Of a stretch of DNA of 64,000 bases, positions 1 to 23,289 are shown piece after piece (within the stretch, counting starts at the first letter, position 1; each line of letters begins with the position of its first letter). The DNA lies in IMG/VR virus record IMGVR_UViG_3300023180_006024, one strand, 5' to 3'. The DNA comes from a virus. The position numbers and the translations under genes were made by a program. A model generated the notes under the pieces. The model was given only the letters and a program-made list of their open reading frames with translations. It did no database searches and had not been told where the DNA came from.

Positions 1-284
1 CTAATGGCGAAGCATTTGGTAGTGGTATAACATTTCCTACAAATACGCATGTTGGCGATTATTTTTTACGCACTGACTTTTTGCCGAATAGACTATTTAG
101 ATATGATGGAAGTAGATGGGTAAAAATGGAAGATGCAGTAAGACATACACTTTCTAACAGCGATACAAGAAATACACAGCGCACAGGATTTGTTAATAAC
201 ACTAACGAAAGTAATATAGCAGGCGATACTGTAAAAGAAAGACAGAGCTTGAGTAAAGCACTCAAACCAAAGGCAGATAACTAA
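1..284 (+). CDS. C-terminal part of a probable neck/head-completion protein (gp14-like), 5'-truncated by the window
   Basis: The frame is open from nt 3 (NGEAFGSGITFPTNTHVGDYFLRTDFLPNRLFRYDGSRW...) to TAA at 284, which overlaps the ATG of the gp15-like gene. Function inferred from position only. Confidence 0.55.
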   Translation, partial: NGEAFGSGITFPTNTHVGDYFLRTDFLPNRLFRYDGSRWVKMEDAVRHTLSNSDTRNTQRTGFVNNTNESNIAGDTVKERQSLSKALKPKADN

Positions 285-1779: not shown

Positions 1780-2214
1780 ATGAAAAAGATAGTATGTAGT
1801 GGAGCTCTATTCTATACTCTCAACACTAGTAGATTTTTACTTTTACACAGAACTGCCAGTAAACATAATAATGTTTGGGGTTTAGTAGGCGGTACAAACG
1901 AAGAAAAAGAAACTCCATTTGAAGGTTTAACTAGAGAAATAGAAGAAGAAATAGGCTTCCTTCCTGAAATAAAAAAGACAATGCCTTTAGAAACATTTAT
2001 TAGTAAAGATGATCATTTTCATTTTCACACATATTTGTGCGTTGTAGAAAAAGAGTTTATTCCAAATCTAAATAATGAACATGATGGATATGCATGGGTA
2101 AGTTTTAGCAAATGGCCTAAACCATTACATCAAGGACTGACTAACACGCTTAGAAATAAAACGAATCAAAGAAAACTACAAACTGTTTTTGAAGTTGTCA
2201 AACTGTTGTCTTAA
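1780..2214 (+). CDS. NUDIX hydrolase
   Basis: Nudix box GGTNEEKETPFEGLTREIEEEIGF; downstream LNNEHDGYAW. Confidence 0.9.
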   Translation: MKKIVCSGALFYTLNTSRFLLLHRTASKHNNVWGLVGGTNEEKETPFEGLTREIEEEIGFLPEIKKTMPLETFISKDDHFHFHTYLCVVEKEFIPNLNNEHDGYAWVSFSKWPKPLHQGLTNTLRNKTNQRKLQTVFEVVKLLS

Positions 2215-5200
2215 CCAATCAAAATCATTGATTTTGCGCAATGCTTCAAGATTGCCTCTATTATTTTCACCGTATTTTTTGCCGTGAATAGCACCACTAA
2301 TCGCTGCATCACCAAACAACTTATCTTTACCTCTTGTACACCAAGCATTTAATCTAAACTCGGTTTCATCGTCAAGTTGTCCGTCAATTGCTCTTGCACT
2401 TAATTTTACACATTCACGGAAGGCACTACGCCACGTACTAAACTCGTCTGTATTAAACTTGGTAATATTGGATACTCTATTAACAGTTTTAAACAACGGA
2501 CTAATGCTTGTAGTCATATCAGGCTTGCTTGTGTCCATGTTAATAGTAAGATCTCTTGGTAATAGTTTTACAGCACCATAACCATATATTAATCCATTAA
2601 TAGGATTTTGTGACTTCCACACATGCACAGTTTTTCTACTGTCAGGATCATATGCAGGTACATAGTAATCAAAGTTAAAGTTGTCAACAATTTGAGCATC
2701 TGCGTCTACAATCCAAATCATATCTGTTTCAGCTGTTTGTGCTGCCATAATATGAGCTTGGTGTATACCTTCAACTCCATGCACCCTATGTATAGTTCTT
2801 TCAGGAAACTTTTGTAATAAGTTTTCAAAGTTTTCATTTGCATGTTCTTCATCTTTACTAATAAACACAATATCATAAAGAGTTGGATAACTTGCAATAA
2901 CTTCGTGTTGTTTCTTATTTGTTAAGAAACGCATGTTTATTTCTCGCTCAGTAACCGGAACTTTTTTGCTTACAAGACTAATGCCGTCCCACGCATCGCC
3001 GTTTTTAAATACATGATTTGTATTTCTTTCAAACCATTGATTATGAGAAAAATACATATCAAAATCAAAGTTATCTGCAATATTTACTTCAGGCGGAATC
3101 ATCCAAAACATTTCTGTTTTTGATTTTTTGAGAGCATGTTCGTAATCACTGTAGGTGTTGATTATAAACTTTTCGTATTTAATTGGGCCACTAGCAACAA
3201 TATTCCATTCTTTTCTTTTAGCAACTAGTCTATGCTCAATCTCTTTTTGTGTTAAAGGTGAACGTTTTGTCAGCAAGAATAAGCCATTGTGTAAATCTTC
3301 GTTATTTACTTTGTGTACAAATGTATGATTAATACTTCTATCATAACTGTTATGATGACTAAAATACATAGTCAAATCAAAGTCGTTGTTTATTTTAATA
3401 TTAGGAGTAGTTGCCCAAAACATTTCGGTGCTCGAATCTTCTATAGCTTCAAGATAATCATCGTATGTTTCGATATTAAATATATCATACGGTTTAGGCT
3501 TACTTACTACTGTTTCCCATTTTTTACTATTTGCGTAAAATCTATTTTCTACTTCTTTCCTAGTAACAGGACTATGTTTTGTAAACAAAACAACACCGTC
3601 ATAATGTTCCCCATTTAAAAATACATGATTTGTTTCTCTGTCATACCTATTATCATGAGAAAAATAAATGTCAAAATCAAAGTCTAAAATATCTAGATCG
3701 CTTGGTACACCCCAGAACATTTCAGTTTTACATGTATCTAATGCAGTTAAATAATCATCATAACTATTGATAGTAAACTTGTTATACATTACGGATTTAC
3801 TTGCAACAGTATTCCATTCTTTGCCTGCGAGCAAGTGTCTATATTCAACTTCACGCTGTGTTACTGGTCTGTGCTTGCTAAACAAAAATAATCCATTACG
3901 TAGTTTTTTATCACCAACTTGATGAATAAAACTATGATTTTGTTTTCTGTCATAGTCATTATCGTGGCTGAAGTAAATGTTAAAGTCAAAATCGCTTGTA
4001 TCTATGTTATTACTGCATCCCCAAAACATCTCAGTATTAGACGATTCTAATGCATTAACATAATCCATGTAAGTTTCAATATTGAACTTATCGTACACAA
4101 CTTTTGTACTTGCTTCAATATCCCATTCTTTAGCGTTTACTATATGTCTATATAATATTTCTTTTTCAGTAACAGGTGTATGTTTACTGAGTAAAAACAA
4201 ACCATTATACATTTTTTTGCCATCTACATTATGAATAAATGCATGATTTGTTTTACGATCGTATTCATTATTCCAATCAAAAACTATACTAAAATCAAAG
4301 TTATCTGTATTAATGTTATGTGTTTTTGCCCAAAATAGTTCTGTTTTTGTGTTATCTACAGCAACTAGATAATCTTCATATGTATCAATATTGAATATAT
4401 CGTATTGTTTAGATTCACTTAAAATAATATCCCATTCTTTTCTTTTTACAATATGTTTATGTTCAACTTCTTTTTCTGTAACCGGAGAATGTTTACTGTA
4501 AAGTATTACTCCATTATAACTTGTTTGATTACCTTTGTGTAAGAACTGATGGTTAGTGTTTCTGTCATACTCGTTGTCATGAGTAAAATAAATATCTAAC
4601 GGTGCACATAACTTTGTATAACTCGATAAACCCCAGAACATTTCTGTTTGAGTTTTACTAAATGCTTCAACATAATCATCGTATGTATCAATAACAAAAC
4701 TATCGTATTGTTTTGCTTTTGTGCAAGGACTTTTCCATTGTTTCACATCTATGATATGTCTATATTCGATTTCTTTACTTGTAATAGGTTTGTTAATACT
4801 TAGAAGAAAAATACCATTATACTTGTCATCACAATGCAAAAAGGCATGATTCATATTTCGATCAAATACGTTGTCATGACTAAAATACAAACTATAATCA
4901 AAGTTAGAATCATCAACGTTTCTAGACGTAGCCCAAAACATTTCTGTTGTTGAGTTATCTAATGCTTCAAGATAATCGTCATAACTTTCAACAATAAACT
5001 TATCATAAGTTTTTGGTTTACTTGCTACAATATCCCAATACTTACATTCAGCAATGTGTCTATACTGGATTTCTTTTTCTGTTACAGGCTTGTTTATACT
5101 CATCAAAAACAAGCCATTGTATAGTTGTTCGTCTTTTACTTCATGTATAAATGCATGATTAATATTTCTATCATATTCGTTATCATGTGTAAAATAAATG

Positions 5201-8200
5201 TCAAAGTCAAAATCACTTGTATCGATATTTTTACTTGTCATCCAAAACATTTCAGTTTCGCATGTATCCATTGCAAACTTGTAATCTTGCCAGCTATCAA
5301 CTGTGTAAACTTCGTATTTTTTAGGTCCACTAGCAACAATATCCCATTCTTTTCGATTTACTAAAAACCTGTGTTCTACTTCTTTTTTACTAATAGGACA
5401 ATGTCTACTGATTAAAAATAAACCGTTATAATATTCTTTATCATCAACTACATGTTTAAATGCATGATTTATTTTTCTATCATACTGATTGTCATGACTA
5501 AAATAAACACTTGAAAAATCAAAATCACTAGTATCAATATTAGCACTACTCATCCAAAACATTTCTGGACCGTTATTATAAAATGCCATTTCGTAATCTT
5601 CAAAACTATCCACAATATACAAAGGATATGTGATAGGCTTACTTGCTATTGTTAGCCATTCTTTGACATTAATAATATGTCTATACTCTAACTCTTTAGG
5701 TGTAATAGGAGAATGCTTACTTAATAAGAATAATCCGTTGTAGAGAATATTACCATCTACGCCATGAGCAAATGCATGGTTGTGTGTTCTGTCATATGTA
5801 TTATCATGAGTAAAATAGATACTAGAAAAATCAAAACTACTTGTGTCTATATTTTCACTATCTGCCCAAAATAACTCCGTTGTGCTTTTTTCAAGTGCAA
5901 TTTTATAATCTTCATATGTTTCGATTATAAACTTGTCATATTGTTTTGCACCACTTGCAACAATATTCCAATGCTTTACATTTATTAAATGTCTGTACTC
6001 AATTTCTTTTTCAGTAACTATACAGTTCTTTGAAAATAAAAATATACCATTGTAAAAATCTTCATTGTCTACTCTGTGAATAAATGCATGATTAATATTT
6101 CTATCATATGTATTGTCATGAGAAAAGTATAAATCTTTTACCATGCCACTATAAAAGTCAACGTTGTTTGTTACACCCCAAAACATTTCTGTTTTTGTAT
6201 TTTCTAGTGCATTTAAATAATCTTGATATGTTTCTACAACAAACTCGTCGTATATCACAGGCTTACTTGCAATAATATTCCATTCTTTACGTTTTAGTAA
6301 GTGTTTGTGCTCAATCTCTTTTTGACTAACAGGATTGTGTATACTCATTAACCACAACCCATTATACAAGTCTTTGCCATTTACTTGATGTATAAATGCA
6401 TGATTTGTTTTACGATCATATTCGTTACTATGTTCAAAATACTGATTAAAATCAAAATCTATACTAATATTAGGAGATGTTGCATAAAACATTTCTGTTT
6501 TTGTATTATCTAAAGCATATAGATAATCTTCATATGTTTCAACATTAAAAATATCATAGGATACTGCGGTACTTAAAACAACATCCCATTCTTTACGTTT
6601 AGCAACAAATCTATGTTCGACTTCTTTTTTTGTAAGTTTTTTATTTTTGTTTATAAGATATAAACCTGTGCGGAAAGTATCATTATTTGCAGCATGTAAA
6701 AAACTATGATGTTGATTTCTATCTATTACACTGTGGTAGCTGATATAAAAGTTTTCAATAACATCATAATCTAGGATATTGAGATTTTTACTGCTCATCC
6801 AAAACAAGTCTGTTGTTGTATTTTCCACTGCATCTAAGTAATCTTGATAGTTGTCTACTTCAAAAATATCATAAGATTTTGGAAAACTTGCAACAATATT
6901 GTGCTCTTTCTTTTTTACAAAAAACCTATTGTTTATTTCTTTTTCGCTTAATGACACATTTTTACTAAGCAAGGCAATACCGTCATACATGTCATTGTTC
7001 AAAAATACATGCGTGATGTTTCTATCGTATTGATTGTGATAATTAAAGTATAAATCAAACTCAAAATCTGATTTAACAACAACATCATCAGGCACTGCCC
7101 AGAACATCTCTGTTGAACTACGCTCTAATGCTAGTTTGTAATCATCGTAGTTATTGACTACAAACTGATCAAACTTTTTTGGGCGGCTTGCTACCACCTC
7201 GTGCTCTTTTTTATGAGTGTAAAATCTATGTTCAAACTCTTTTTTAGAAACTTTAGCGTTTTTTGAAAACAGTGCAATACCGTCGTAACTTTGATCATTT
7301 AAAAAGACATGATTGATGTTGCGGTCAAACTTTACATGATGATCAAAGTATAAACCAAAATCAAAGTCGTCGTCTACTTCTACATCATTTGGAACATACC
7401 AAAACATTTCAGTTTTACTATTTTCTAATGCATGTAAATAATCATCATAACTGTTAATAATAGGTTTATCATAAGGTACAGGATTACTTGCAAGTATTTT
7501 TACTTCTTTTTTATTGATGTAAAATCTATGATCAACTTCTTTATCGGTTAGTTCATAAAATTTTGGTAAAAGAACAATACCATCTTGGCTGTCTCCGTTT
7601 CTAAACATATGAGCATATTTTTGACTCCAGTCGTCTGGCTGATATGAAAACTTGAAAATAGGAGTCACGTCAATATCATCTGGTACGATCCATAACATAT
7701 CAGTTTCACTCAATGCTTGTGCTGTATCAATAGCATCTACACATTGTGCATGTGGAAATCTATCAAGCAGTTTTTTATATTGTGTAGAGTTTTCATCTCC
7801 AATAAAAAACAAATCAAACTGCGATTTTCCTTGATAAACGTCATAAACTCCTGCAATATGATCGTGTTTTTCTCTAAGTTCAGTTGTAAATCTAGTAGGA
7901 CACAACTTACACCATTCATAGGTTTTTATTCTGTGACTAGATTTATAAACATAAGGAAATACTTGTACTTTTCCTTTTGCAGTTGGCCGAACATATAAAG
8001 GAAATGTGTCTAGTAAGTCTAAATCTTCATGTATAATCCATACCCACTCTGCTTGGTCTTTGTATTGTAATGCTTGAGTTTCGTCTTCTGGATTATCTGT
8101 CCTGTGAATAGGCCAGGTGTTTAAAAAATGATTTTTTAAAACGTCTTGACCATTATATACCTTTTTTCCAAATTTTTCAAACTTATCAAATGCTGTGCTC

Positions 8201-8202
8201 AT
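2176..8202 (-). CDS. Giant repeat protein (2008 aa) with a C-terminal GT-A-like glycosyltransferase domain
   Basis: 15 tandem ~102-aa repeats, then YDIVFIS...GIHQAH...TDMIWIVDAD (DxD)...GYGAVKL...WRSAFRE. Confidence 0.75.
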   Translation of the reverse strand: MSTAFDKFEKFGKKVYNGQDVLKNHFLNTWPIHRTDNPEDETQALQYKDQAEWVWIIHEDLDLLDTFPLYVRPTAKGKVQVFPYVYKSSHRIKTYEWCKLCPTRFTTELREKHDHIAGVYDVYQGKSQFDLFFIGDENSTQYKKLLDRFPHAQCVDAIDTAQALSETDMLWIVPDDIDVTPIFKFSYQPDDWSQKYAHMFRNGDSQDGIVLLPKFYELTDKEVDHRFYINKKEVKILASNPVPYDKPIINSYDDYLHALENSKTEMFWYVPNDVEVDDDFDFGLYFDHHVKFDRNINHVFLNDQSYDGIALFSKNAKVSKKEFEHRFYTHKKEHEVVASRPKKFDQFVVNNYDDYKLALERSSTEMFWAVPDDVVVKSDFEFDLYFNYHNQYDRNITHVFLNNDMYDGIALLSKNVSLSEKEINNRFFVKKKEHNIVASFPKSYDIFEVDNYQDYLDAVENTTTDLFWMSSKNLNILDYDVIENFYISYHSVIDRNQHHSFLHAANNDTFRTGLYLINKNKKLTKKEVEHRFVAKRKEWDVVLSTAVSYDIFNVETYEDYLYALDNTKTEMFYATSPNISIDFDFNQYFEHSNEYDRKTNHAFIHQVNGKDLYNGLWLMSIHNPVSQKEIEHKHLLKRKEWNIIASKPVIYDEFVVETYQDYLNALENTKTEMFWGVTNNVDFYSGMVKDLYFSHDNTYDRNINHAFIHRVDNEDFYNGIFLFSKNCIVTEKEIEYRHLINVKHWNIVASGAKQYDKFIIETYEDYKIALEKSTTELFWADSENIDTSSFDFSSIYFTHDNTYDRTHNHAFAHGVDGNILYNGLFLLSKHSPITPKELEYRHIINVKEWLTIASKPITYPLYIVDSFEDYEMAFYNNGPEMFWMSSANIDTSDFDFSSVYFSHDNQYDRKINHAFKHVVDDKEYYNGLFLISRHCPISKKEVEHRFLVNRKEWDIVASGPKKYEVYTVDSWQDYKFAMDTCETEMFWMTSKNIDTSDFDFDIYFTHDNEYDRNINHAFIHEVKDEQLYNGLFLMSINKPVTEKEIQYRHIAECKYWDIVASKPKTYDKFIVESYDDYLEALDNSTTEMFWATSRNVDDSNFDYSLYFSHDNVFDRNMNHAFLHCDDKYNGIFLLSINKPITSKEIEYRHIIDVKQWKSPCTKAKQYDSFVIDTYDDYVEAFSKTQTEMFWGLSSYTKLCAPLDIYFTHDNEYDRNTNHQFLHKGNQTSYNGVILYSKHSPVTEKEVEHKHIVKRKEWDIILSESKQYDIFNIDTYEDYLVAVDNTKTELFWAKTHNINTDNFDFSIVFDWNNEYDRKTNHAFIHNVDGKKMYNGLFLLSKHTPVTEKEILYRHIVNAKEWDIEASTKVVYDKFNIETYMDYVNALESSNTEMFWGCSNNIDTSDFDFNIYFSHDNDYDRKQNHSFIHQVGDKKLRNGLFLFSKHRPVTQREVEYRHLLAGKEWNTVASKSVMYNKFTINSYDDYLTALDTCKTEMFWGVPSDLDILDFDFDIYFSHDNRYDRETNHVFLNGEHYDGVVLFTKHSPVTRKEVENRFYANSKKWETVVSKPKPYDIFNIETYDDYLEAIEDSSTEMFWATTPNIKINNDFDLTMYFSHHNSYDRSINHTFVHKVNNEDLHNGLFLLTKRSPLTQKEIEHRLVAKRKEWNIVASGPIKYEKFIINTYSDYEHALKKSKTEMFWMIPPEVNIADNFDFDMYFSHNQWFERNTNHVFKNGDAWDGISLVSKKVPVTEREINMRFLTNKKQHEVIASYPTLYDIVFISKDEEHANENFENLLQKFPERTIHRVHGVEGIHQAHIMAAQTAETDMIWIVDADAQIVDNFNFDYYVPAYDPDSRKTVHVWKSQNPINGLIYGYGAVKLLPRDLTINMDTSKPDMTTSISPLFKTVNRVSNITKFNTDEFSTWRSAFRECVKLSARAIDGQLDDETEFRLNAWCTRGKDKLFGDAAISGAIHGKKYGENNRGNLEALRKINDFDWLRQQFDNFKNSL
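2878..7473 (-). repeat. 15 tandem ~306-nt (~102-aa) intragenic repeats
   Basis: Recurring consensus YDxFxIxTYxDYLxALxxxxTEMFW...FDFxxYFSHDNxYDRxxNHxF...YNGLFLxSK...TxKExEHR...KEWxIVAS, counted by eye. Confidence 0.95.
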
Positions 8203-8801
8203 TGTAAATCTTTTAACCTAAATGATTTTGTTCCGTAATGTGCTATTTCTTGACTTAGAGCTGCATCTACATAGATTTCAAATCCAGCGTCATTTGCGTT
8301 TTTACAGAAAAAAATATCTTCGCCGCTTAAATCTTTTGTATCTTCGTTGTACAAATACTGATGATACGGTTTAGAAATATATTTATATACATGTGTTTTT
8401 ACCAACATACAGCCCATAGCAACTGCCCAAATTTTATGTAAACCTTGGTGTGCATCTAATCTTACATTTAGATTGCTTGAATCGGGCCAAGCAGTGATAT
8501 TGTATGGCGGTACTCTTGTGCTGTATGCTGCTGCAACAATATCTTTATCATGCTCTAATAAAGTGTTTATTGTTGCAGAAGGTACATGCATGTCACTATC
8601 TAACCACATAATATGTGTAGCATCATACTCTAAGGCTTGATCTACTAATGTGTTTCTTTGCTGAGGTATAACCGAACCTAAGTTAATAAAGATTTTAAAA
8701 TCAATGTTATTTTTTGTCAACAAAGAAGAAATATTAGATAAACTTAGTGCAAATCCTGCATGAACATAGTCTCGTGCAGGCACACATATTGCTACTTTCA
8801 T
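8199..8801 (-). CDS. GT2/GT-A family glycosyltransferase
   Basis: MKVAICVP...QRNTLV...HIMWLDSDM (DxD)...MGCMLVK...SGEDIFFC. Confidence 0.8.
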   Translation of the reverse strand: MKVAICVPARDYVHAGFALSLSNISSLLTKNNIDFKIFINLGSVIPQQRNTLVDQALEYDATHIMWLDSDMHVPSATINTLLEHDKDIVAAAYSTRVPPYNITAWPDSSNLNVRLDAHQGLHKIWAVAMGCMLVKTHVYKYISKPYHQYLYNEDTKDLSGEDIFFCKNANDAGFEIYVDAALSQEIAHYGTKSFRLKDLQ

Positions 8802-9208
8802 TAGACGATTTCTTCAGAAATAGTATCCAAGTTAAGTTGTTTTTCAGCACCAATAGTGCTTTCGTTTAGATCTCTTGCTTTGCCTACAGCAATCTTAACT
8901 GCTTCTTTAAAATCTTCACTAGGAAGAGAACTCATTACAACCATATTTTCAGGTTGAACTTTACCTAAAGTTAATAAGTCTGCTGCTGCTTTGTGTGCAA
9001 TGACGTTAATCCAATGAGTTCTGTCGTCTTGTTCTACACGATCAGGATGATTTACCTCAGCTTCTGATTCGCCACCTAAAATAGATTCTACAATCTCATT
9101 ATAAATGTCTTCATCTTCTAGGTTTAGTGAATCTAGTTTAAGTAGCTTTCTAGATTTGCTAAACTCCGTAGAAAGTTCAACATTGAGTATTTGGTATTTT
9201 GAATACAT
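8801..9208 (-). CDS. Hypothetical protein, first gene of the glycosyltransferase operon
   Basis: Open ORF. GGAG 6 nt upstream of the ATG at 9208 favours this start over 9220. Its stop overlaps the next start. Confidence 0.7.
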   Translation of the reverse strand: MYSKYQILNVELSTEFSKSRKLLKLDSLNLEDEDIYNEIVESILGGESEAEVNHPDRVEQDDRTHWINVIAHKAAADLLTLGKVQPENMVVMSSLPSEDFKEAVKIAVGKARDLNESTIGAEKQLNLDTISEEIV

Positions 9209-9230
9209 GTATATCTCCATTATTTGTTAT

Positions 9231-9259
9231 AATATATATAACTAAGTTTGTTTTGTCAA
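9231..9259 (-). promoter_or_regulatory. Sigma70-like promoter for the glycosyltransferase operon
   Basis: TTGACA-N17-TATATT on the minus strand. Confidence 0.75.
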
Positions 9260-9266
9260 GTGATTT

Positions 9267-11285
9267 TTATGGTATTTCATAACTATGAACATAACCAGCT
9301 TGATCTCTTAATATCATAGCCGTTCCTGTTGAATTTACATCCATTCCAGTTACAGCACTAATGTACCATGGAAGTGTAAATGTTCCGGTTATTGATGCAC
9401 TGTTACTACGAAACGGAGTTGGAAGTGAAATTTCGTAAATAATAGCTCTATCAACTAAACGTGTTTGAGTATACCTTGCGTTATAAGCCACCCAAACTTT
9501 ATCTCCTTCAGGAGACATAGCAAAACATCTTGCAAAGTATGACGCAGATGCCTTTCCTGTTATATTTGACAAGTTTAAAGAACTATAAAAACTTGCAGCA
9601 CTAGGACTACTGATTACGCTGCTTGTTCCTCTGCTGAATACTAGTGTTTGTGCAGTAGTGTTCCATTGTAAATATGCATGATAGATATATGGATACGTTG
9701 GTAGATACGTTGGGCTGTATGCTTGAAAATGTTGTACTTGAAAATCTGTAGTTACTGTGCTACCAATGGTTCTACTAGCATAACTATTACTTACACCATT
9801 AGCAATAGTTCCTGCTGAGTTTAACCTTCTATACATCAAAACATAGGTACCATTATAGTTAATAACTTGTGATATACCTATACTTGATTGCGGATGCATT
9901 TTCATGCTCATAACATTTTGAGGTGTACTTGAACTAAAATAAAAAGGCATTGCAGCAGTATGTGCCCAAGATCCAGAAGCTTGACTTGAGTTAATACTTG
10001 AAAAGTCGTAAGCAGTAGGCATGTCTTGTTCAATATATTCACGATTAATTATAGATAAAAAGGATGTTCCGTTTAGATTCCAACATACGCCACCTTCCAT
10101 AAGACCGTTATTGGTAGCATTAAGACCAGTATATTGCAACTCAGCTTGATCATCAAAATGCCACAAACTTAAATGTGCACCACTGTGTCTATTTGGTTTT
10201 GTGGTTTTAGTACTCCATGTTGACAAGTCCCATGCTGTGCTAAGTTCGTATGCAGTTATATATCCATTGTAGGTTCCAGGACCTCCGGCAACTAACTGTG
10301 TTCCATTTGGGGCAAATGCAACTGGTGCAATTCTTCCATATGTTGGAAGATCTGGGCCTCCAGTTTGTGTAGTAGTAGTACTGGGTTTCCAGTCAAACCA
10401 AGCTGTTCCACTATGAGTTTTCATGTCCATTGTTTTACCAGCAATGTAATATGCCCAAAAATGAAAACCATCGTCAGCAAAGCCACCTCTATAAAATGCT
10501 GTGCTTGTATTGTCAACTAATCCTACTAGATTTGGAAAACTTCCATCATATAATCCAGCAAATGTATAAGGTGTTCCCCCTGGCATTGTTCTATAGATTT
10601 CCCAGGAGCATTCTCCTGTAGATTTTTCACCCATGTAACAGAACATATAGCCACCATCTCTCCAAGCAATACCATTTCTTCCAGAATATCCTGAGTTTCG
10701 TTGTTGGTCTGTAAATGTTTCATCCGGTGTTGCACTAGCAGTACTAGTATCAAACGGTGTTGTACAAGTTCTAATAATAGCACCTTCGATGCCAAAGCCC
10801 AATGTGGTATTATGTTGTGTCAAAACTTTTGTACCGTCGGAGTTAAAGTCGATTTGATTTGCGCCTTTGTTAGTAGGTTCGTCTATATAAATGTCTGGAA
10901 CACCGTCACCTACTAAACTGGTTAAATCGTATGGATTTGGAATATTCCAAATAGCAGTCATTTCGCTACCAGAACTGCTTTGCCAAGCAACAGCAAGTTT
11001 TGATCCTCCATCTACCCACTGAGCATTGTAACTAGCACTTGTACCAGTGTACAGATAAGGAACTGGTTTGTTTGTTAATCCTCCACCCGGAACCAAAGAA
11101 GAAACAATCCAGTTATTACCACTAGTTGTAAGTCCGCCAAATGTTGCACTTAGAAATATAGTTGAACCAACTGAAATACCTAAATATGATCCTAAAACGC
11201 TCATTACAATAGGTGTACCGCTTGCACCAAAATAGTTGCGTACTTCTGTCATTGTTATTTGAGAGCCGGTAGGGGGTAATGCCAT
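9267..11285 (-). CDS. Putative receptor-binding adhesin (gp38-like N-terminus plus beta-propeller-like repeats)
   Basis: N-terminus MALPPTGSQITMTEVRNYFG is typical of proteins after S74-chaperone fibres. Repeated blades (YELSTAWDLST, IPNPYDLTS, CTTPFDTST, MPTAYDFSS). Lies directly downstream of the giant fibre. Confidence 0.6.
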   Translation of the reverse strand: MALPPTGSQITMTEVRNYFGASGTPIVMSVLGSYLGISVGSTIFLSATFGGLTTSGNNWIVSSLVPGGGLTNKPVPYLYTGTSASYNAQWVDGGSKLAVAWQSSSGSEMTAIWNIPNPYDLTSLVGDGVPDIYIDEPTNKGANQIDFNSDGTKVLTQHNTTLGFGIEGAIIRTCTTPFDTSTASATPDETFTDQQRNSGYSGRNGIAWRDGGYMFCYMGEKSTGECSWEIYRTMPGGTPYTFAGLYDGSFPNLVGLVDNTSTAFYRGGFADDGFHFWAYYIAGKTMDMKTHSGTAWFDWKPSTTTTQTGGPDLPTYGRIAPVAFAPNGTQLVAGGPGTYNGYITAYELSTAWDLSTWSTKTTKPNRHSGAHLSLWHFDDQAELQYTGLNATNNGLMEGGVCWNLNGTSFLSIINREYIEQDMPTAYDFSSINSSQASGSWAHTAAMPFYFSSSTPQNVMSMKMHPQSSIGISQVINYNGTYVLMYRRLNSAGTIANGVSNSYASRTIGSTVTTDFQVQHFQAYSPTYLPTYPYIYHAYLQWNTTAQTLVFSRGTSSVISSPSAASFYSSLNLSNITGKASASYFARCFAMSPEGDKVWVAYNARYTQTRLVDRAIIYEISLPTPFRSNSASITGTFTLPWYISAVTGMDVNSTGTAMILRDQAGYVHSYEIP

Positions 11286-11308: not shown

Positions 11309-11337
11309 ATTTTAACAAAAAGAATCTAAGATGTCAA
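11309..11337 (-). promoter_or_regulatory. Sigma70-like promoter upstream of the adhesin
   Basis: TTGACA-N17-TAAAAT on the minus strand. Confidence 0.65.
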
Positions 11338-11339
11338 CA

Positions 11340-11362
11340 AGTAAGGGCTTGATGCCCTTACT
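11340..11362 (-). terminator. Hairpin right after the giant fibre stop (terminator or processing stem)
   Basis: AGTAAGGGC-ttgat-GCCCTTACT, a perfect 9-bp stem with a weak U tract. Confidence 0.55.
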
Positions 11363-14300
11363 CTATTTATCTATCAACTTCTTGACCATTTCTTTAAGTT
11401 GATCTATTTCTTCCTGTTGTTCTTTTATAGCTTCGATTAAAAGAGGAACCATCTTTTCATACTTAACTGTTAAGTAATCCTCTCCTGATTTACTTCCAAT
11501 GTCGTCACCAGTCTGTTCATCACGTAGTCTATCAAACGGTGCATAATCAACTGCTTGTGGTAATACTTTTTGAACTTGTTGTGCAAGTACACCTGCATCG
11601 TTGACTTTTATAGTTGGATTAAATCCTAGTTCTTCTACTTCATCAATCCAATCATAATGCACACCTTGTAGTTGCTTAACTTTATCAATTGCATTTTCAA
11701 TAGGACGAATATTTGTTTTCAATCTTTCATCTGATGAATATGCTGTTACTTCGCCTGTTGCTGTAAACGATGCCGAAACATCAACAGTAGTATTGTTACA
11801 AGTTAGTCGAGTACCACCATTGTAATACAATCTAAAGTAACTGTTTCTTACAGCTAAGAAGTGTGCCTCGTTATCAACATCGTTATATAGATATGTGCTT
11901 GAGCTACCATCGTGCATTAACACAATGCGTCCGTCAATGCTAAGACCTTCCCAGCCGTTTACGCCGGAACCACTTGTTTGTATAGTACCATACTGTCCTG
12001 TAACATCGGTAATACCTCTAGTGCTGTCAACCCTAATAATACCGTCTGCACGTAAGTTACCTGGTGTGTATATACCGTTTGTAAACTCACTAGCATTATT
12101 CATACGCAACCAACCGTCATCAAAATCTGCACTCAATGCTGTTCTACTGTTAAACGCAATACCTCTATTATCGCTTGTGCTATTACCAGTAAAATCAATG
12201 ATATCGTCGCTTGTGCTTGAATAATCATAAGTTCCGCTTGCAGTATCATTTGCATCACTGCGTATAAACGACCCACTATCAATACCATCTATAGTGTCAG
12301 CATCAAGTCCTGAACCTGATCCATCGTTGCCAGAGTGCCAAACAGTATGTGCTGTTGCAGTGCCATTGTCATAAAACTTAAGACCATTAATACCGCTGCC
12401 AATATCAAGTCTTTCGCCTGTAGCATCTGATGCTAATCTTAATGTGCCGCCGTTTACATATTGCATGTAAGCACGTCTTGTTGTACCTTGATACCATCCA
12501 ATATAAGGAGAGTTGTTTGTTGTAGGAGCAACAATCTTAAATACTTCTCCGTCTCTTTGGAAAGTTATCTGTCCAGTTGCAGTGTCATTTGCATCACTAC
12601 GTAAGAAACTAGCACCTTGAATACCATCAACAGTATCAGCATCAACGCTTGTAAGTCCACTACCATTACCAGTAAATGTGTTTGTACCAATATTAACATC
12701 GCCAAAGTTGCTGGTAATACTACCTGCATCTAATGCACCTGTACCAGTAATGCCTGTGTAACTTCCACTTATTCTTGCGTTAGGCACTGTACCTGATCCA
12801 AGATTATCTGCATTAAGAGATGTAATACCACTACCACTACCTGTTATACTTCCAGTAACACTTAGGTTATTAGAAACGGTAGTTGTAGTATTGTTTACTT
12901 CTAGTCTCTCTACACCTGCTGTAACAACACGCCATTGATCGGTTGCATGGAACTGAATATAGTTGTTGCTATCACCTGTGTGGTAGATTCTATCAGCAAG
13001 TGCAATATCTTCAACACCTGTAATCACATTGCCATTCAAGTTTGTAGCACCAAGACTTACACTACCGGTTGCAGTCAAGTTACTTGTACCTATATCAATA
13101 TTTCCAAATCCGCTTGTTATAGACCCGCTTCCAAGTGCACCAGTTCCTGTAATACTTGATTGGTGTTGTGTAATACTGGTAGCAGCAATTCTGCCATCTG
13201 GTACAGTACCGCTTGTAAGTTGGCTTGCATTAAGTGCAGTCAAGTTTGTACCAACACCACTAAAGCCTGTTGTGCCACTAAATGTAAATGTTGTGGTATT
13301 TACGCTCAAGTTTACACCAGGTACACTAAACAAATCGTTGCTTGCATTACCAATAATAATAGCATTACTTGTAGTATTTGCTGCTGTTTCAACGTTATAA
13401 CCAATAAGAACGTTATTACTACCAGTTGTTAATGTATCGCCTGTGAATGCACCAATAGCAACGTTATTATCTCCAGTTACAAGTTCAAGTGCTTCAATAC
13501 CAACACTAGTGTTATAATCACCAGCAGTACTGTTTGATTGCGAACTTTTACCTATTGCTGTGTTACCTGCACCTGCATTAGTTCTTTGCTCCATTGCATT
13601 TGCACCAACTGCTGTGTTGTTGCTCACAGTTGTTACAGCGTTTAATGCATTGTAGCCTAGTGCAGTATTTCTGTCACCTGTTAGTCCTCCTGCAAATGTA
13701 GCATCACCAATACCTGTGTTAAACTGTGCACCCGTACCAATGCTGCCGCCTTCACCAAACACCAAGTTTGTTGCTTCGCCTTGATTGCCTCTACCAATCC
13801 TATGACCATTTACAGTAATATCGCTTGTAAATGTTTTACCTGCTTGACTAGTTGGCAATCTAGCATCGTTTACAGTTCCACTTGACAAGTTAGTTGCATT
13901 AAGTGCTGTAATATTTGCACCATTACCGTAGAATCCTGATCCTGTGTAAATCTTTTTAGCAACACCTAAACCGCCGCCAACACGCACAGCACCACTAGTA
14001 CTATTGCTTGCATCACTAGTATCACTAAATGTTTTTACACCTGCCATTGTTTGGTTACCGCCTAGGCGTGTACCTTGTACAGTACCTGATGTTAGCTGAC
14101 TTGCATTTAAATCTGTAAGTCCGCTGCCATTACCAGTAAATGTGCTTGTACCGATGTTGATGTTTCCAAAACCAGTTGTGATACTACCGCTATTAAGTGC
14201 ACCAGTACCTGTAATACTTGCTTGGTGTTGAGTTACGTTACTAACAGCAATACGAGCATCAGCTAGTGTACCACTATCAATATTAGATGCTGCAATGCTA

Positions 14301-17300
14301 CCTGTAAAGCTGGCACCATGTACTGCACCACCTACACCTAGTCCGCCTGTTATGACAAGCGCACCTGTGCTTGTACTAGTAGCACTAGTGTTATTTGTAA
14401 CGGTTGTTAATCCACTTGCTGTAAGAGTTGTAAATGCACCAGTTGAAGGTGTTGTTCCTCCGATTGGAACATTGTCGATAGCAGGTATAGTTAATGTTCC
14501 TGAAATACCAACATTGCCTGCGACACTTATATCATCTGCAAAACTAACAGTGCTTGTTGCGGCGCCAACATTGATTGTAGCTGCGCCTCCTCCAAAGTTT
14601 ACTGTTGTAGCATTTGTGTTTAGTAAGTTAAATGATGTTTGGTTTGTTGTAATATCGCCACCGTCAACATTTAAATCGCCATCAACATCAAGATCGTTGT
14701 TAACACTTGTAGTACCTGTTGCAGCACCAATGTCAACTGCTGTAGCTGCACCAAATGCATTCACTGTAGTTGCATTTGTATTCAACAAGTTAAATGTTGT
14801 TTGGTTTGTTGTGATATCGCCACCGTCGACATTTAAATCAAGATCAACATCTAAGTTATTGTTAATACTTGTAGTGCCAGTTGATGCACCGATGTCTATA
14901 GCAGTTGCACTACCACCAAAGTTGATTGTAGTAGCTGTGTCATCAAACAATGCCATTGTGGTGCTTGCTGCCTCAATGCCAGTTGTAAACTCAGGAGATG
15001 TAGCAAAAACTGCTGCACCTGTTCCTGTTTCGTCACTTAACACGCTTGCAAGTTGCGCACTAGTTGTTGCAGCGAACTGATTCAATCCTGTTTCAGTTCT
15101 TGCTAATGTACCGCTTGTTGGAAGTGTTACACTTGTATTACCTGTTGTTGTAAGTCCAAGAGTGTGAGCACCAGTGTGTGTAAAGCTACCTCCTAGTGTG
15201 ATAGTTTTACTACCATTGTTTACACCTGTACCACCGTAAGTTGGATTAATGACTGTAGCTTGCCATGTACCTGTGTTAACAGTACCTAGTTGTTGTAAAC
15301 TACTATTTACAACATTAGTACCAAGTGTTGTTGACGTTAAAACATTATTGCCATTTATACGATATGCTTTTGCACTTGCAAGTTCAAAGTTTTCACTGCT
15401 TGTCCAACTATCAGTAGCATCTACCCAGTTAATAGTTTTATCAGTTGTTCCTTTTAAGGTAATACCACCACCGTCTGCTGTAACATCAGTTGGTGTTGCA
15501 ACATTGCCAAGTTCGATATTTTTATCTTCAACAATAAGTGTTGCACTATCAACTGTGGTTGTTGTACCATTAACTGTAAGATTTCCTGTTATTTCAACGT
15601 CACCTGCAATGTTTGTATTACCTGTAGTATACGCCATTGTTACTTTATTCAAGCCGTCGCCAAAGTTAAAGTTACCATCTTGATCAACTTGCATACGTCG
15701 AGTACCGGCTGTGTAGAAGTCTAAGTCGTCATTGTCAGTACCTGATGTTGTTTCGGCCACAATGTAAGTATCTTGGTCAACGTCGATTACACCGCCTAAA
15801 CCACTCCAGTTTGTTCCATCATATCCTTCAAATTGTCCGTCTGTTGAGTTGTAACGAACTTGACCTTGTGCTGCTGTAGGTCTTTCAGCAGTTGTACCAA
15901 CTGGAAGTTTTACAGCACTTGTATCACTAAAGTTTGTGTATCCAGTTACTGTAACATCGCCTTCGGTATCAATGGTCATTCTTGTTGTTGATGTTTGTAA
16001 TGTTTCTCCACTAGTACCTGTTTGACCAGTTTTGATTATAACACTACCTCCAGTTGCATTACCTGTGCTTAATCCGCCTTGTATAGTGATATCGCCGCCG
16101 GCAATGTTTGTTCCTAGACCGTTTTCGCCTCTAATAACTGCACTCGAAGTACTTGCACTAGCTTCTGCACTACCAAAGATAACATCTCTATTTCTAATAA
16201 CCATTGTATTATCTTTAGAAATAGTACCTTGCACTACTACATTGGCAGCAGTCACATTTGCAGCAGTTCTAACTGTAAATGATGTTGCATCAATAGTTGC
16301 GCCACTTACTGGCCATGTACCATCTAAGTTTGTGACATTACTTCCAGAAATAATAATAGAATCGCCTGCACGGACACCAAGTGTTTCAGGTGTATAAGTA
16401 AATGTTATTTCTGTTGATGTTAATACAGTACCTGTGGTTTCTGCACTCAAAAATACTTCAGTTTCGGTTACACCAGTAACAGTTGTGTTAGCAGGAATAC
16501 TTCCGCTTCCTGTTACTGTCATACCATATTTTACACCAGTAGTGTCTGTAAATACCAAAGTTTTTTCAGCATTAGCAGTTGCTTCACTAGTATCTAAAGC
16601 AATACTTGCTAGGTTTACAACAACGTCTTGAGATGCTGTTGCTTCATAATCTAGAGCAAAACTTGTAATATCTCTCGTGTCGCTAGACTTACCTATTTTT
16701 ACATTGTGTGCATCGCCTCCAAGTTCTAAAGTCGTAACATTAGTATTATAAACTTGACCTAGAGCATCGCTTGAAGAGCTAAGTTTAGCTGAACCAACGT
16801 CTAGTCCTTCAGCAAGGTCAAGTGCTGTACCCCACTCAGGTGTACTACCGTTTGACTTTAAGAAAGTATTTGCACGACCGATGTTCAAAGTATTTAATGT
16901 ACCTGACGATTGTGCATAAAGTATATCACCTTGTGCATAGGTTGTTATAGCTGTGCCACCTCTATCAACAGGAACTGCACTTGTTAAGTTAGCAGGGTTT
17001 AAGAAGTATGCACTATCAAGTCCGTCAAGTGTACCAGCATCAACAATACCATCTTTAATGAATACTTCACCACTACCGTTTGAGTTAACATCAAACTGTG
17101 TTTGCAAGAAACGACTTACACCTAGTGTACTAAATGTACCTCCAGCATCATAGTCGGCATTTGCAATACCAATATTTACTGGATCACCATAATACTCACC
17201 TGCTGTGTTTAAACCAGTAAGAGTAATAGGGTTATCTGTTGTATTAGCTTTTTTCAAGGTTTGAACAACAACCTTGTATTCACTGTTACCAAACAATGCT

Positions 17301-23182: not shown

Positions 23183-23289
23183 TAAGGCTGCCTCCTATTT
23201 AGGTGTGGGTCAAGTCTATAAAGACGCCCGTACTACACGATAGAAATCGTTGTAATGTTATTTATCATAGGAATAAAAGTGGCAGCTTT

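What the first reader, a model, noticed from the sequence alone, without database searches (positions are those of the whole stretch)
2176..8202. 2008-aa protein of 15 degenerate glycosyltransferase-like units plus one intact GT domain
Seen: each ~102-aa repeat echoes the C-terminal domain (YDxF..A...TEMFW..x.D...FDF.Y...H.F...YxG..L versus YDIVF..A..AETDMIWIVDAD..FNFDY...VHVW...GYGAVKL), but only the last keeps DxD (DAD). Two subtypes are interleaved: VPxD/HVFxN..DG in repeats 1, 2, 13 and 15, and S.N(I/V)/HAF.H...YNG in the other 11. A more divergent unit precedes the array. Inference: catalytically dead GT-A half-domains could act as a multivalent sugar or nucleotide-sugar binding array, a glycan chain-length ruler, or a scaffold for decorating the adjacent giant fibres.
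Basis: partly seen in the sequence, partly recalled or inferred. Interest (0 to 1): 0.8.

Follow-up and report, generated by a model that had tools for sequence, protein, structure and literature searches.

The report
Phage glycosyltransferase on pseudo-enzyme stalk
An uncultured jumbo phage encodes a 2008-residue protein in which one intact sugar-transferase domain sits at the end of a chain of 16 to 17 shrunken, catalytically disabled copies of its own fold; nothing like this turned up in the libraries or papers searched, and its purpose is still unknown.

Summary
ORF 2176..8202(-) encodes 2008 aa: a lineage-specific N-terminal domain, one longer degenerate unit, 15 tandem units of 99-105 aa, and a 233-aa C-terminal domain with DAD.

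- **C-terminal domain:** it models at pLDDT 92.8 and matches GT-A enzymes (Z 10-12).
- **Repeat units:** three repeats model at pLDDT 94. In an unbiased scan of 48,161 chains, all 50 best hits are GT-A or nucleotidyltransferase folds, each aligned to exactly one unit. Z is only 4.3-6.8.
- **Homology:** profile comparisons link the units to the catalytic domain (E 3e-6, and transitively 1e-12).
- **Lost active site:** none of 694 units across the family keeps both DxD acids.
- **Selection:** the units evolve under purifying selection (dN/dS about 0.1), like the enzyme head.
- **Copy number:** long relatives carry 6-16 units, and shorter forms (543-850 aa) carry 2-5.
- **Fibre link:** unit number does not track fibre cassette number.

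My best reading is a rigid non-catalytic stalk or scaffold carrying an active transferase within a conserved three-gene glycosylation module beside the giant fibre genes. The target is not shown. The scan found the same architecture earlier on other DNA (e1-5697562, e1-5337022). It is a new variant of a known kind.

The parts
2176..8202 (-). Whole ORF, 2008 aa plus stop (P0001)
7819..8202 (-). N-terminal domain, residues 1-128. Conserved only in the fibre-adjacent long forms. Possibly a very degenerate further unit or an anchoring domain.
7474..7818 (-). N unit, residues 129-243. A longer degenerate GT-A unit (IVPDD) that still has the helix-strand pair missing from the short units. Equivalent to the N domain of the common ~350-aa two-domain relatives.
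7174..7473 (-). R1, type A unit (VPND)
6874..7173 (-). R2, type A unit (VPDD)
6559..6873 (-). R3, divergent type B unit
3787..6558 (-). R4-R12, nine type B units (S/T-x-N at the DxD position). Boundaries at 6253, 5941, 5629, 5317, 5008, 4708, 4405 and 4096. This is the block whose copy number varies between relatives.
3490..3786 (-). R13, type A unit (VPSD)
3178..3489 (-). R14, type B unit
2878..3177 (-). R15, type A unit (IPPE), modelled packed against the catalytic domain
2179..2877 (-). C-terminal GT-A domain, residues 1776-2008, followed by a family-specific helical region
2698..2706 (-). DxD motif, D1833-A-D1835. Both Asp are invariant in 92 aligned relatives.
8199..8801 (-). 200-aa Anp1-like GT-A gene. 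Its TGA overlaps the array's ATG (ATGA), which suggests translational coupling.
8801..9220 (-). 139-aa protein (phrog_1409, function unknown), first gene of the conserved three-gene module. TAATG overlap with the next gene.
9231..9259 (-). Sigma-70-like promoter match TTGACA-N17-TATATT in the 46-nt gap before the module. A consensus match only.

Best explanation
**Architecture (shown).** The protein is a single-headed glycosyltransferase on a long stalk of pseudo-enzyme modules. The ancestral form, common in uncultured phages, is a ~350-aa protein: a degenerate GT-A 'N unit' followed by an active GT-A domain. In this jumbo-phage lineage a shortened copy of the N unit (~102 aa, one helix-strand pair deleted, first DxD acid lost) was duplicated repeatedly between the two. 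That gave 15 units here, and an N-terminal lineage-specific domain was added.

**Stalk role (inferred).** The modules do not catalyse sugar transfer. They pack head-to-tail into a fairly rigid rod that is conserved for its structure or surface.

**Enzyme role (inferred).** The rod holds or positions the C-terminal enzyme. The enzyme works with the translationally coupled 200-aa GT-A next door to glycosylate a phage-made target, most plausibly the giant fibres or another virion surface encoded alongside. The N-terminal domain may be the anchoring end.

**Donor (a lead only).** The donor may be a UDP-uronic acid, because short relatives sit directly after a UDP-sugar 6-dehydrogenase gene.
For: Architecture and homology:
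- 15 units score 128-158 bits each.
- Unit profile against catalytic-domain profile: hhalign probability 87.7%, E 3.4e-6.
- N units of relatives match positions 1-107 of the catalytic-domain profile at E about 1e-12. N units match the unit profile at 1e-11 to 1e-17.

Folds:
- The R15 plus C-domain model has pLDDT 92.8 and pTM 0.86.
- Foldseek returns only GT-A enzymes, E from 1.7e-6.
- VIA gives Z 10-12.2, rmsd about 3 A, with 130-143 residues aligned over model residues 100-243.
- The three-unit model has pLDDT 94.1 and pTM 0.85, with a long terminal strand running into the next unit.
- In the unbiased VIA scan all 50 listed chains are GT-A or nucleotidyltransferase folds. Almost every one is aligned to exactly one unit, about 100 of 103 residues.

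Loss of catalysis:
- 0 of 694 family units have acids at both DxD positions.
- Units are about 102 aa, against a 231-position minimal GT-A core (PMC7185993).

Selection:
- dN/dS is 0.10-0.12 for the array and 0.07-0.16 for the head.
- Units are colinear and individually orthologous between relatives.
- All family-invariant residues of the head are present here.

Context:
- p139, GT200, the array, a convergent NUDIX gene and gp15 are syntenic in every related locus with enough flank. The module follows a giant fibre gene that carries a Peptidase_S74 chaperone domain.
- ATGA and TAATG overlaps join the three module genes.
- Short relatives lie next to UDP-glucose/GDP-mannose dehydrogenase genes.

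Precedent:
- B3GLCT has an inactive extra GT-A domain that is needed for acceptor binding (PMC13597200).
Against: - No activity, donor, acceptor or virion location is shown.
- Rigidity rests on AlphaFold confidence with an alignment built from sliding windows of repeats, which can inflate inter-unit confidence. The tool gives no coordinates, so the shape and rise per unit were not measured.
- Unit number does not follow the nearer fibre's length or the CxRD cassette count.
- The module is preceded by sigma-70-like promoter matches, while the giant fibre gene has a TAAATA box. This could mean the module is expressed apart from virion genes.
- His54 and Glu82 are conserved in 100% of 694 units. 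Such invariant polar residues could mean a ligand site and not mere scaffolding.
- The head fails Pfam GT2 thresholds.
Confidence: 0.5

Rival explanations
1. Multivalent acceptor-binding array. Each dead GT-A module keeps a vestigial pocket or hypervariable loops that bind a repeated element of the substrate (a glycan or a fibre domain), as the inactive N-terminal GT-A domain of B3GLCT binds its acceptor. The protein then clamps along a long repetitive target.
For: - B3GLCT precedent.
- A polar constellation (R50, H54, K74, E82, R86, K92, S99) is 89-100% conserved in 694 units.
- Two unit types occur in a conserved order, AA-B..B-ABA.
- The neighbouring fibres are themselves repetitive.
Against: - Unit number (15, 10, 8, 15) does not match CxRD cassette number (13, 12, 14, 12) in four related phages.
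- Relatives with 2-5 units (543-850 aa) lie in sugar or radical SAM clusters or other non-fibre contexts, not beside fibres.
- No binding is shown.
Confidence: 0.2
2. The protein is itself a virion fibre or whisker. The N-terminal domain is the attachment end, the rod of GT-A-derived modules is the shaft, and the GT-A head is the distal tip that binds or modifies host surface glycan during adsorption.
For: - The layout of N-terminal conserved domain, length-variable repeat rod and C-terminal globular head is that of phage fibres (established knowledge).
- The gene lies in the tail and fibre region between the giant fibres and gp15.
- The N-terminal domain occurs only in the fibre-adjacent long forms.
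Against: - The head is 55-65% identical to most of the listed best hits among 3264 matches, free-standing 225- and 350-aa proteins. That is far more conserved than receptor-binding tips usually are.
- No trimerisation or chaperone element was found.
- The module has sigma-70-like and not late-type promoter matches.
Confidence: 0.15
3. Chain-length ruler or host-surface remodelling. The enzyme builds or caps a polysaccharide (host capsule or LPS, or a phage-made polymer), and stalk length sets the distance between an anchor and the active site, as the WbdD coiled coil sets O-antigen length.
For: - Stalk length varies in steps between lineages, from 2 to 16 units.
- Short relatives lie in sugar-nucleotide clusters.
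- Earlier notes report a Kdo and glycan cluster elsewhere in this genome (not tested here).
Against: - There is no membrane anchor, coiled coil or partner terminator enzyme nearby.
- Synteny is with fibre and tail genes, not with polysaccharide export genes.
Confidence: 0.1
4. The units are not dead. They have acquired a different activity or a cofactor or metal site built on the invariant His and Glu.
For: - His54 and Glu82 are conserved in 100% of 694 units, and Arg50 and Lys92 in 92-94%.
- dN/dS is as low as in the enzyme head.
Against: - A unit is less than half the minimal GT-A core.
- The equivalent His also occurs in the head (HVW), where it lies in a core strand, so a structural role is the simpler reading.
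- I know of no precedent.
Confidence: 0.05

Closest known systems
B3GLCT, a two-domain GT-A glucosyltransferase (PMC13597200)
   Same: [quoted passage not shown] This matches the ancestral ~350-aa 'N unit plus head' form of this family.
   Different: B3GLCT has one extra full-size domain. Here there are 16 to 17, of which 15 are miniaturised to about 102 aa. No sequence relation to B3GLCT was found or tested, and the acceptor is unknown.
COSMC (C1GALT1C1), a GT31 pseudo-glycosyltransferase (as described in PMC7185993)
   Same: A GT-A fold that lost DxD and catalysis and serves as a scaffold or chaperone for an active paralogue.
   Different: COSMC is a separate single-domain protein, not a tandem array fused to the enzyme.
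GT2-like GT-A enzymes with solved structures (B4GALNT1 9h6l, ThuS 7msk, SunS 7msp, WrtF 9omh, SpsA 1h7l)
   Same: The C-terminal domain shares the GT-A core and the DxD position (Z 9.7-12.2). Single units align to the same enzymes at Z 5.5-6.8.
   Different: Sequence identity is 8-13%. Pfam GT2 models are below threshold. The helical C-terminal region is family-specific. IspD-type nucleotidyltransferases score equally well by fold.
Multi-domain viral glycosyltransferases (chlorovirus PBCV-1 A064R and relatives; from my own knowledge) and mycobacteriophage virion glycosylation (Freeman 2023, as cited in PMC12619734)
   Same: Virus-encoded glycosyltransferases, encoded near structural genes, that decorate virion proteins. 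Several GT domains occur in one chain.
   Different: Those proteins have two or three domains that are each active. No long array of dead domains is described.
The same architecture noted earlier in this scan on other DNA (e1-5697562, 1496 aa; e1-5337022, eight units)
   Same: Same family: a DxD-less module array ending in one intact GT-A head, with two unit subtypes.
   Different: This copy is at the top of the size range: 15 short units and 2008 aa, where the family maximum seen is 16 units and 2010 aa.

Membership tests
GT-A fold glycosyltransferase (C-terminal domain) | Rossmann-like alpha/beta/alpha core with a central mixed sheet | tested here: met
   Model pLDDT 92.8. Foldseek hits are all GT-A, E from 1.7e-6. 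VIA Z 10-12.2, rmsd 2.5-3.5 A, 129-143 aligned.
GT-A fold glycosyltransferase (C-terminal domain) | DxD metal and nucleotide-sugar motif at the end of the strand after helix 2 | tested here: met
   D1833-A-D1835. Both Asp are invariant in 92 and in 15 aligned relatives.
GT-A fold glycosyltransferase (C-terminal domain) | xED catalytic base, G-loop and C-His of the common core (PMC7185993) | tested here: inconclusive
   Invariant YGYGG and invariant Asp in ..PDMTT.. are candidates. They were not mapped onto a structural superposition because no coordinates were available.
CAZy GT2 / Pfam PF00535 Glycos_transf_2 (C-terminal domain) | Score above the family's gathering threshold | tested here: not met
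   13.7 bits against a cutoff of 23.3, E 0.06. There were no NCBIfam, PHROG or PDB sequence hits.
IspD-like nucleotidyltransferase (C-terminal domain) | Shared fold plus a glycine-rich nucleotide-binding loop after strand 1 | tested here: not met
   The fold matches at Z 10-10.9. However, the loop after strand 1 reads FIS(K/Y)(D/N)E, as in GT2 enzymes, with no Gly-rich signature. The signature itself is from my own knowledge.
GT-A fold derivative (each repeat unit) | Homology to a GT-A domain | tested here: met
   hhalign probability 87.7%, E 3.4e-6 against the head. Transitive link through N units at E about 1e-12 and 1e-11 to 1e-17. All 50 listed VIA-wide hits are GT-A-like folds, almost all aligned to one whole unit, but at only Z 4.3-6.8.
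Active GT-A enzyme (each repeat unit) | Intact DxD and the full 231-position common core | tested here: not met
   0 of 694 units have acids at both DxD positions. Units are 99-105 aa and lack the helix-strand pair and the C-terminal half of the core.
B3GLCT-type enzyme with an inactive accessory GT-A domain | The accessory domain forms the acceptor-binding cleft with the catalytic domain | not testable with these tools
   The R15-head model is confident (pTM 0.86), but no acceptor is known.
Phage tail fibre | Virion-attached, oligomeric shaft with a receptor-binding tip | not tested
   Only the gene's position beside fibre genes bears on this. No fibre-type domain was found in Pfam or PHROGs.

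The most novel reading that the evidence does not exclude
The pseudo-GT-A modules form a new kind of phage shaft. It would be a rigid, length-tunable rod built entirely from a disabled enzyme fold, anchored to the virion or its giant fibres by the N-terminal domain, and carrying a live glycosyltransferase at its tip. The enzyme would then act at a set distance, either decorating the fibres during assembly or modifying host surface glycan on contact.
Probability: 0.15. Interest if true: 0.8.

Novelty: new variant of a known kind. Interest (0 to 1): 0.6.

Why it matters
Inactive duplicates of GT-A enzymes are known as single accessory domains or separate chaperones (B3GLCT, COSMC). B3GLCT's one extra domain was itself called unusual in 2026. 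Here the same principle is taken to 16 or 17 fused copies, shrunk to less than half the minimal GT-A core, yet each is conserved as strongly as the enzyme.

The family is confined to uncultured large phages: 107 clusters in 1.84 billion representative proteins. It has no Pfam, NCBIfam or PHROG model and no solved structure. It sits in a conserved module beside some of the largest fibre genes known in phages.

If the stalk positions the enzyme, it would be a simple, countable system for asking how spacing controls glycosylation. It would also point to glycosylated giant fibres in environmental jumbo phages. The miniature unit is of interest on its own as a lower size limit for a stable GT-A-derived fold.

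Tried and rejected
- **Family libraries on the whole protein.** Pfam and PHROGs gave only sub-threshold noise: TcpQ at E 0.046 and phrog_18991 at E 6e-5.
- **Family libraries on the head.** NCBIfam, PHROGs and a PDB sequence search gave nothing.
- **DNA-level repeats.** Tandem Repeats Finder found none.
- **Cultured phages.** Only Ralstonia phage RsoM2USA carries a free-standing head homologue, at 44% identity. No cultured phage has the array.
- **Foldseek on the three-unit model against PDB.** No match at E <= 0.001, although the weak list is dominated by GT-A folds.
- **Own genome.** No whole genome is held for this window.
- **Ruler or scaffold test.** Fibre lengths are 3939/3099, 3603/2711, 3924/2532 and 3930/3106 aa. 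CxRD cassette counts are 13, 12, 14 and 12. Unit counts are 15, 10, 8 and 15. There is no relation with the nearer fibre or with cassettes. With the second fibre there is only a monotonic trend from three independent points.
- **N-terminal domain as a further unit.** Weakly supported against the head (probability 43%) and not against the unit profile (probability 3%).
- **T4-type late promoter.** TATAAATA occurs 3 times in the window against 7.8 expected, and none lies before the module.
- **Literature.** Searches for tandem, degenerate or pseudo GT-A arrays in phages found no description of this architecture.
- **ESM Atlas.** It returned only uncharacterised viral clusters.


Full report
**Observation**

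The minus-strand ORF 2176..8202 is open for 2008 codons in DNA of about 30% G+C. Anchoring on the T(E/D)MFW motif and building a profile shows 15 consecutive units of 99-105 aa (residues 244-1775). Each scores 128-158 bits. The units are 30-62% identical to one another, mean 46%. They are no longer detectable as DNA tandem repeats, so the duplications are old.

Before the units lie a longer divergent unit (residues 129-243, IVPDD) and a further conserved domain (1-128). After them lies a 233-aa domain with D1833-A-D1835.

**What the C-terminal domain is**

It belongs to a very large, unnamed, almost purely viral family. There are 3264 hits, and most of the listed best hits are 55-65% identical. 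The ESM Atlas returns only uncharacterised viral clusters. The usual forms are about 225 aa (the domain alone) and about 350 aa (N unit plus domain). No Pfam, NCBIfam, PHROG or PDB sequence match passes threshold; GT2 models reach only E 0.06.

A model of R15 plus this domain, built on 92 sequences, has pLDDT 92.8 and pTM 0.86. Foldseek returns only GT-A glycosyltransferases, E from 1.7e-6. VIA aligns model residues 100-243 to B4GALNT1, ThuS/SunS, WrtF, SpsA and also IspD-type nucleotidyltransferases at Z 10-12.2, rmsd about 3 A, 129-143 residues.

The DxD acids and about 40 other positions are invariant across relatives and are present here. The strand-1 motif FIS(Y)NE resembles the GT2 xPxYNE motif and not a nucleotidyltransferase glycine loop; that comparison rests on my own knowledge. 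I therefore read it as an active GT-A transferase of a family not captured by the libraries searched.

**What the repeats are**

Three lines of evidence agree.

- **Sequence.** The unit profile matches the head at hhalign probability 87.7%, E 3.4e-6. The match spans helix 2, the FW strand, the DxD position and the following strands. N units of relatives match positions 1-107 of the head profile at E about 1e-12. N units match the unit profile at 1e-11 to 1e-17.
- **Secondary structure.** A unit has the same order of elements as the head, minus one helix-strand pair and minus the C-terminal helical region. I equate the missing pair with alpha1-beta2.
- **Fold.** A model of R7-R9 has pLDDT 94.1 and pTM 0.85. 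In a Foldseek-independent scan of 48,161 chains, all 50 listed hits are GT-A or related nucleotidyltransferase folds. Almost all align to exactly one unit (for example model 103..207), with about 100 of 103 residues at rmsd about 3 A.

The Z values of 4.3-6.8 would not be convincing alone, and Foldseek gives no hit at E <= 0.001. The uniform fold class and the coincidence with unit boundaries are what count. Each unit spans the whole core sheet of the enzymes it matches. It is a skeletonised GT-A core and not a half-domain.

**Are the units dead?**

I collected 694 distinct units from 71 long family members. None has an acid at both DxD positions. The first position is S, P, T or W. The last is N in 55% of units and D or E in 39%. 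At about 102 aa a unit is less than half of the 231-position minimal GT-A core (PMC7185993). Canonical nucleotide-sugar binding and transfer are therefore very unlikely.

The units are not decaying. dN/dS against two relatives is 0.10-0.12 for the array and 0.07-0.16 for the head. Several polar residues are nearly or fully invariant: His54, Glu82 and Leu71 at 100%, and Arg50, Lys74 and Lys92 above 90%. Whether these are interface or ligand residues could not be decided without coordinates.

**Evolution and distribution**

Related viral contigs carry complete proteins of 543, 550, 845, 1268, 1286, 1372, 1471, 1493 and 2005 aa. The 5.8-billion-protein search finds 71 clusters of at least 1104 aa with 6-16 short units. 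The longest are 2008-2010 aa. Against 1.84 billion representatives the unit profile hits only 107 proteins, with at most 16 stretches in one protein.

Units are colinear between relatives, and the order AA-B...B-ABA is kept. The middle type B block is what expands or contracts. Other sublineages have expanded all-B, all-A or alternating arrays, and some have adjacent near-identical units. Expansion has therefore recurred.

Between the window and its 89%-identical relative, dS per unit ranges from 0 (R9) to 1.7 (R4, R15). This indicates recombination within the array.

**Context**

The window is a jumbo phage with a T4-type gp15 homologue that is only about 32% identical to PA5oct-like phages. 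On the minus strand the gene order is:

- a 3099-aa giant;
- a 3939-aa giant with a C-terminal Peptidase_S74 chaperone domain;
- a 672-aa protein;
- a 139-aa protein (phrog_1409);
- a 200-aa Anp1-like GT-A;
- the array.

The gene ends convergently overlapping a NUDIX gene that is followed by gp15. In every related locus of the N-terminal-domain type with enough flank, the 139-aa protein, the 200-aa GT-A, the array, NUDIX and gp15 are syntenic. The three module genes overlap by TAATG and ATGA.

Relatives with only 0-2 short units instead sit directly after a UDP-glucose/GDP-mannose dehydrogenase gene within radical SAM/SPASM clusters. This is a lead to a uronic-acid donor.

Four related phages, three of them independent, compare as follows.

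| Phage | Nearer fibre (aa) | Second fibre (aa) | CxRD cassettes | Units |
|---|---|---|---|---|
| Window | 3939 | 3099 | 13 | 15 |
| G001 | 3603 | 2711 | 12 | 10 |
| G002 | 3924 | 2532 | 14 | 8 |
| G003 | 3930 | 3106 | 12 | 15 |

There is no relation with the nearer fibre or with cassette number. There is only an unproven monotonic trend with the second fibre. A one-unit-per-cassette scaffold is not supported.

**Mechanism**

I commit to a single active GT-A head carried on a rigid stalk of non-catalytic GT-A-derived modules. It would work with the coupled 200-aa GT-A on a phage-made target near the fibres. My confidence is about 0.9 for the architecture and pseudo-enzyme status, about 0.35 for the stalk/virion-glycosylation role, and 0.5 overall.

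The architecture, homology, loss of DxD, purifying selection and synteny are shown. Rigidity (from pTM, with a repeat-derived alignment), enzyme activity, donor and target are inferred. The rivals are listed separately: a B3GLCT-like multivalent acceptor clamp, a true virion fibre, a polysaccharide ruler, and a new activity on the invariant His and Glu.

**Comparison and novelty**

The nearest known principle is the inactive accessory GT-A domain of B3GLCT (PMC13597200) and the pseudo-GT COSMC (PMC7185993). Both involve a single domain. Literature searches found no description of long GT-A pseudo-domain arrays. BFVD holds two uncharacterised uncultured-phage proteins of 804 and 1076 aa with a similar repeated fold at 12% identity, so the theme may be wider.

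The scan had already noted this family on other DNA, and a follow-up reached a similar reading. I tested the claims independently here. I file this as a new variant of a known kind.

Noticed in passing
window 2878-7473 compared with L004:10730-15330: Synonymous divergence between the window and its 89%-identical relative is mosaic along the array. R9 has dS 0 and R6-R7 have 0.04-0.13, but R4 and R15 have about 1.7. This points to recent recombination between related phages inside the repeat array.
   Followed up: partly
window 11309-11362 and 9231-9259 (-); L030:8790-8845; L015:8757-8815: A hairpin followed by a near-consensus sigma-70-like promoter (TTGACA-N17-TAAAAT, TACAAT or TATATT) lies right after the giant fibre gene in three diverged relatives. 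The giant fibre gene itself is preceded by TAAATA plus GGAGG (window about 23190-23205). The glycosylation module may therefore be timed differently from the fibres.
   Followed up: partly
window 9267-11285 (-); L030:8868-9020: The 672-aa protein here corresponds in relatives to a small ORF of about 60 aa that matches only its first ~50 residues (52-70% identity). The gene is greatly expanded in this phage and its closest relatives.
   Followed up: no
window 23290-32589 and 11363-23182 (-); G001-G003: The C-x-R-D cassette count stays at 10 in the 2532-3106-aa giant of four related phages, although that protein's length differs by more than 500 aa. The count is 2-4 in the 3603-3939-aa giant.
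   Followed up: partly
L036:6737-9047; L033:8855-11635: Short family members (348 and 543 aa) lie immediately downstream of a UDP-glucose/GDP-mannose dehydrogenase gene, inside clusters with many radical SAM/SPASM genes, in two diverged contexts.
   Followed up: partly
BFVD entries A0A6J5LK21 (804 aa) and A0A6J5L5L5 (1076 aa): Two uncharacterised proteins of uncultured Caudovirales match the three-unit model over about 360 columns at E 5e-10 and 1e-8, but at only 12% identity. They may be a second, distant family of GT-A-derived repeat arrays.
   Followed up: no
window 2176-2214: The array gene and the convergent NUDIX gene (1780..2214, +) overlap by 39 nt at their 3' ends. The same arrangement is seen in the relatives.
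   Followed up: no
P0130 residues about 120-330: In a 1491-aa relative, two adjacent units are nearly identical over about 40 residues. This shows that unit duplication is still going on in some lineages.
   Followed up: no
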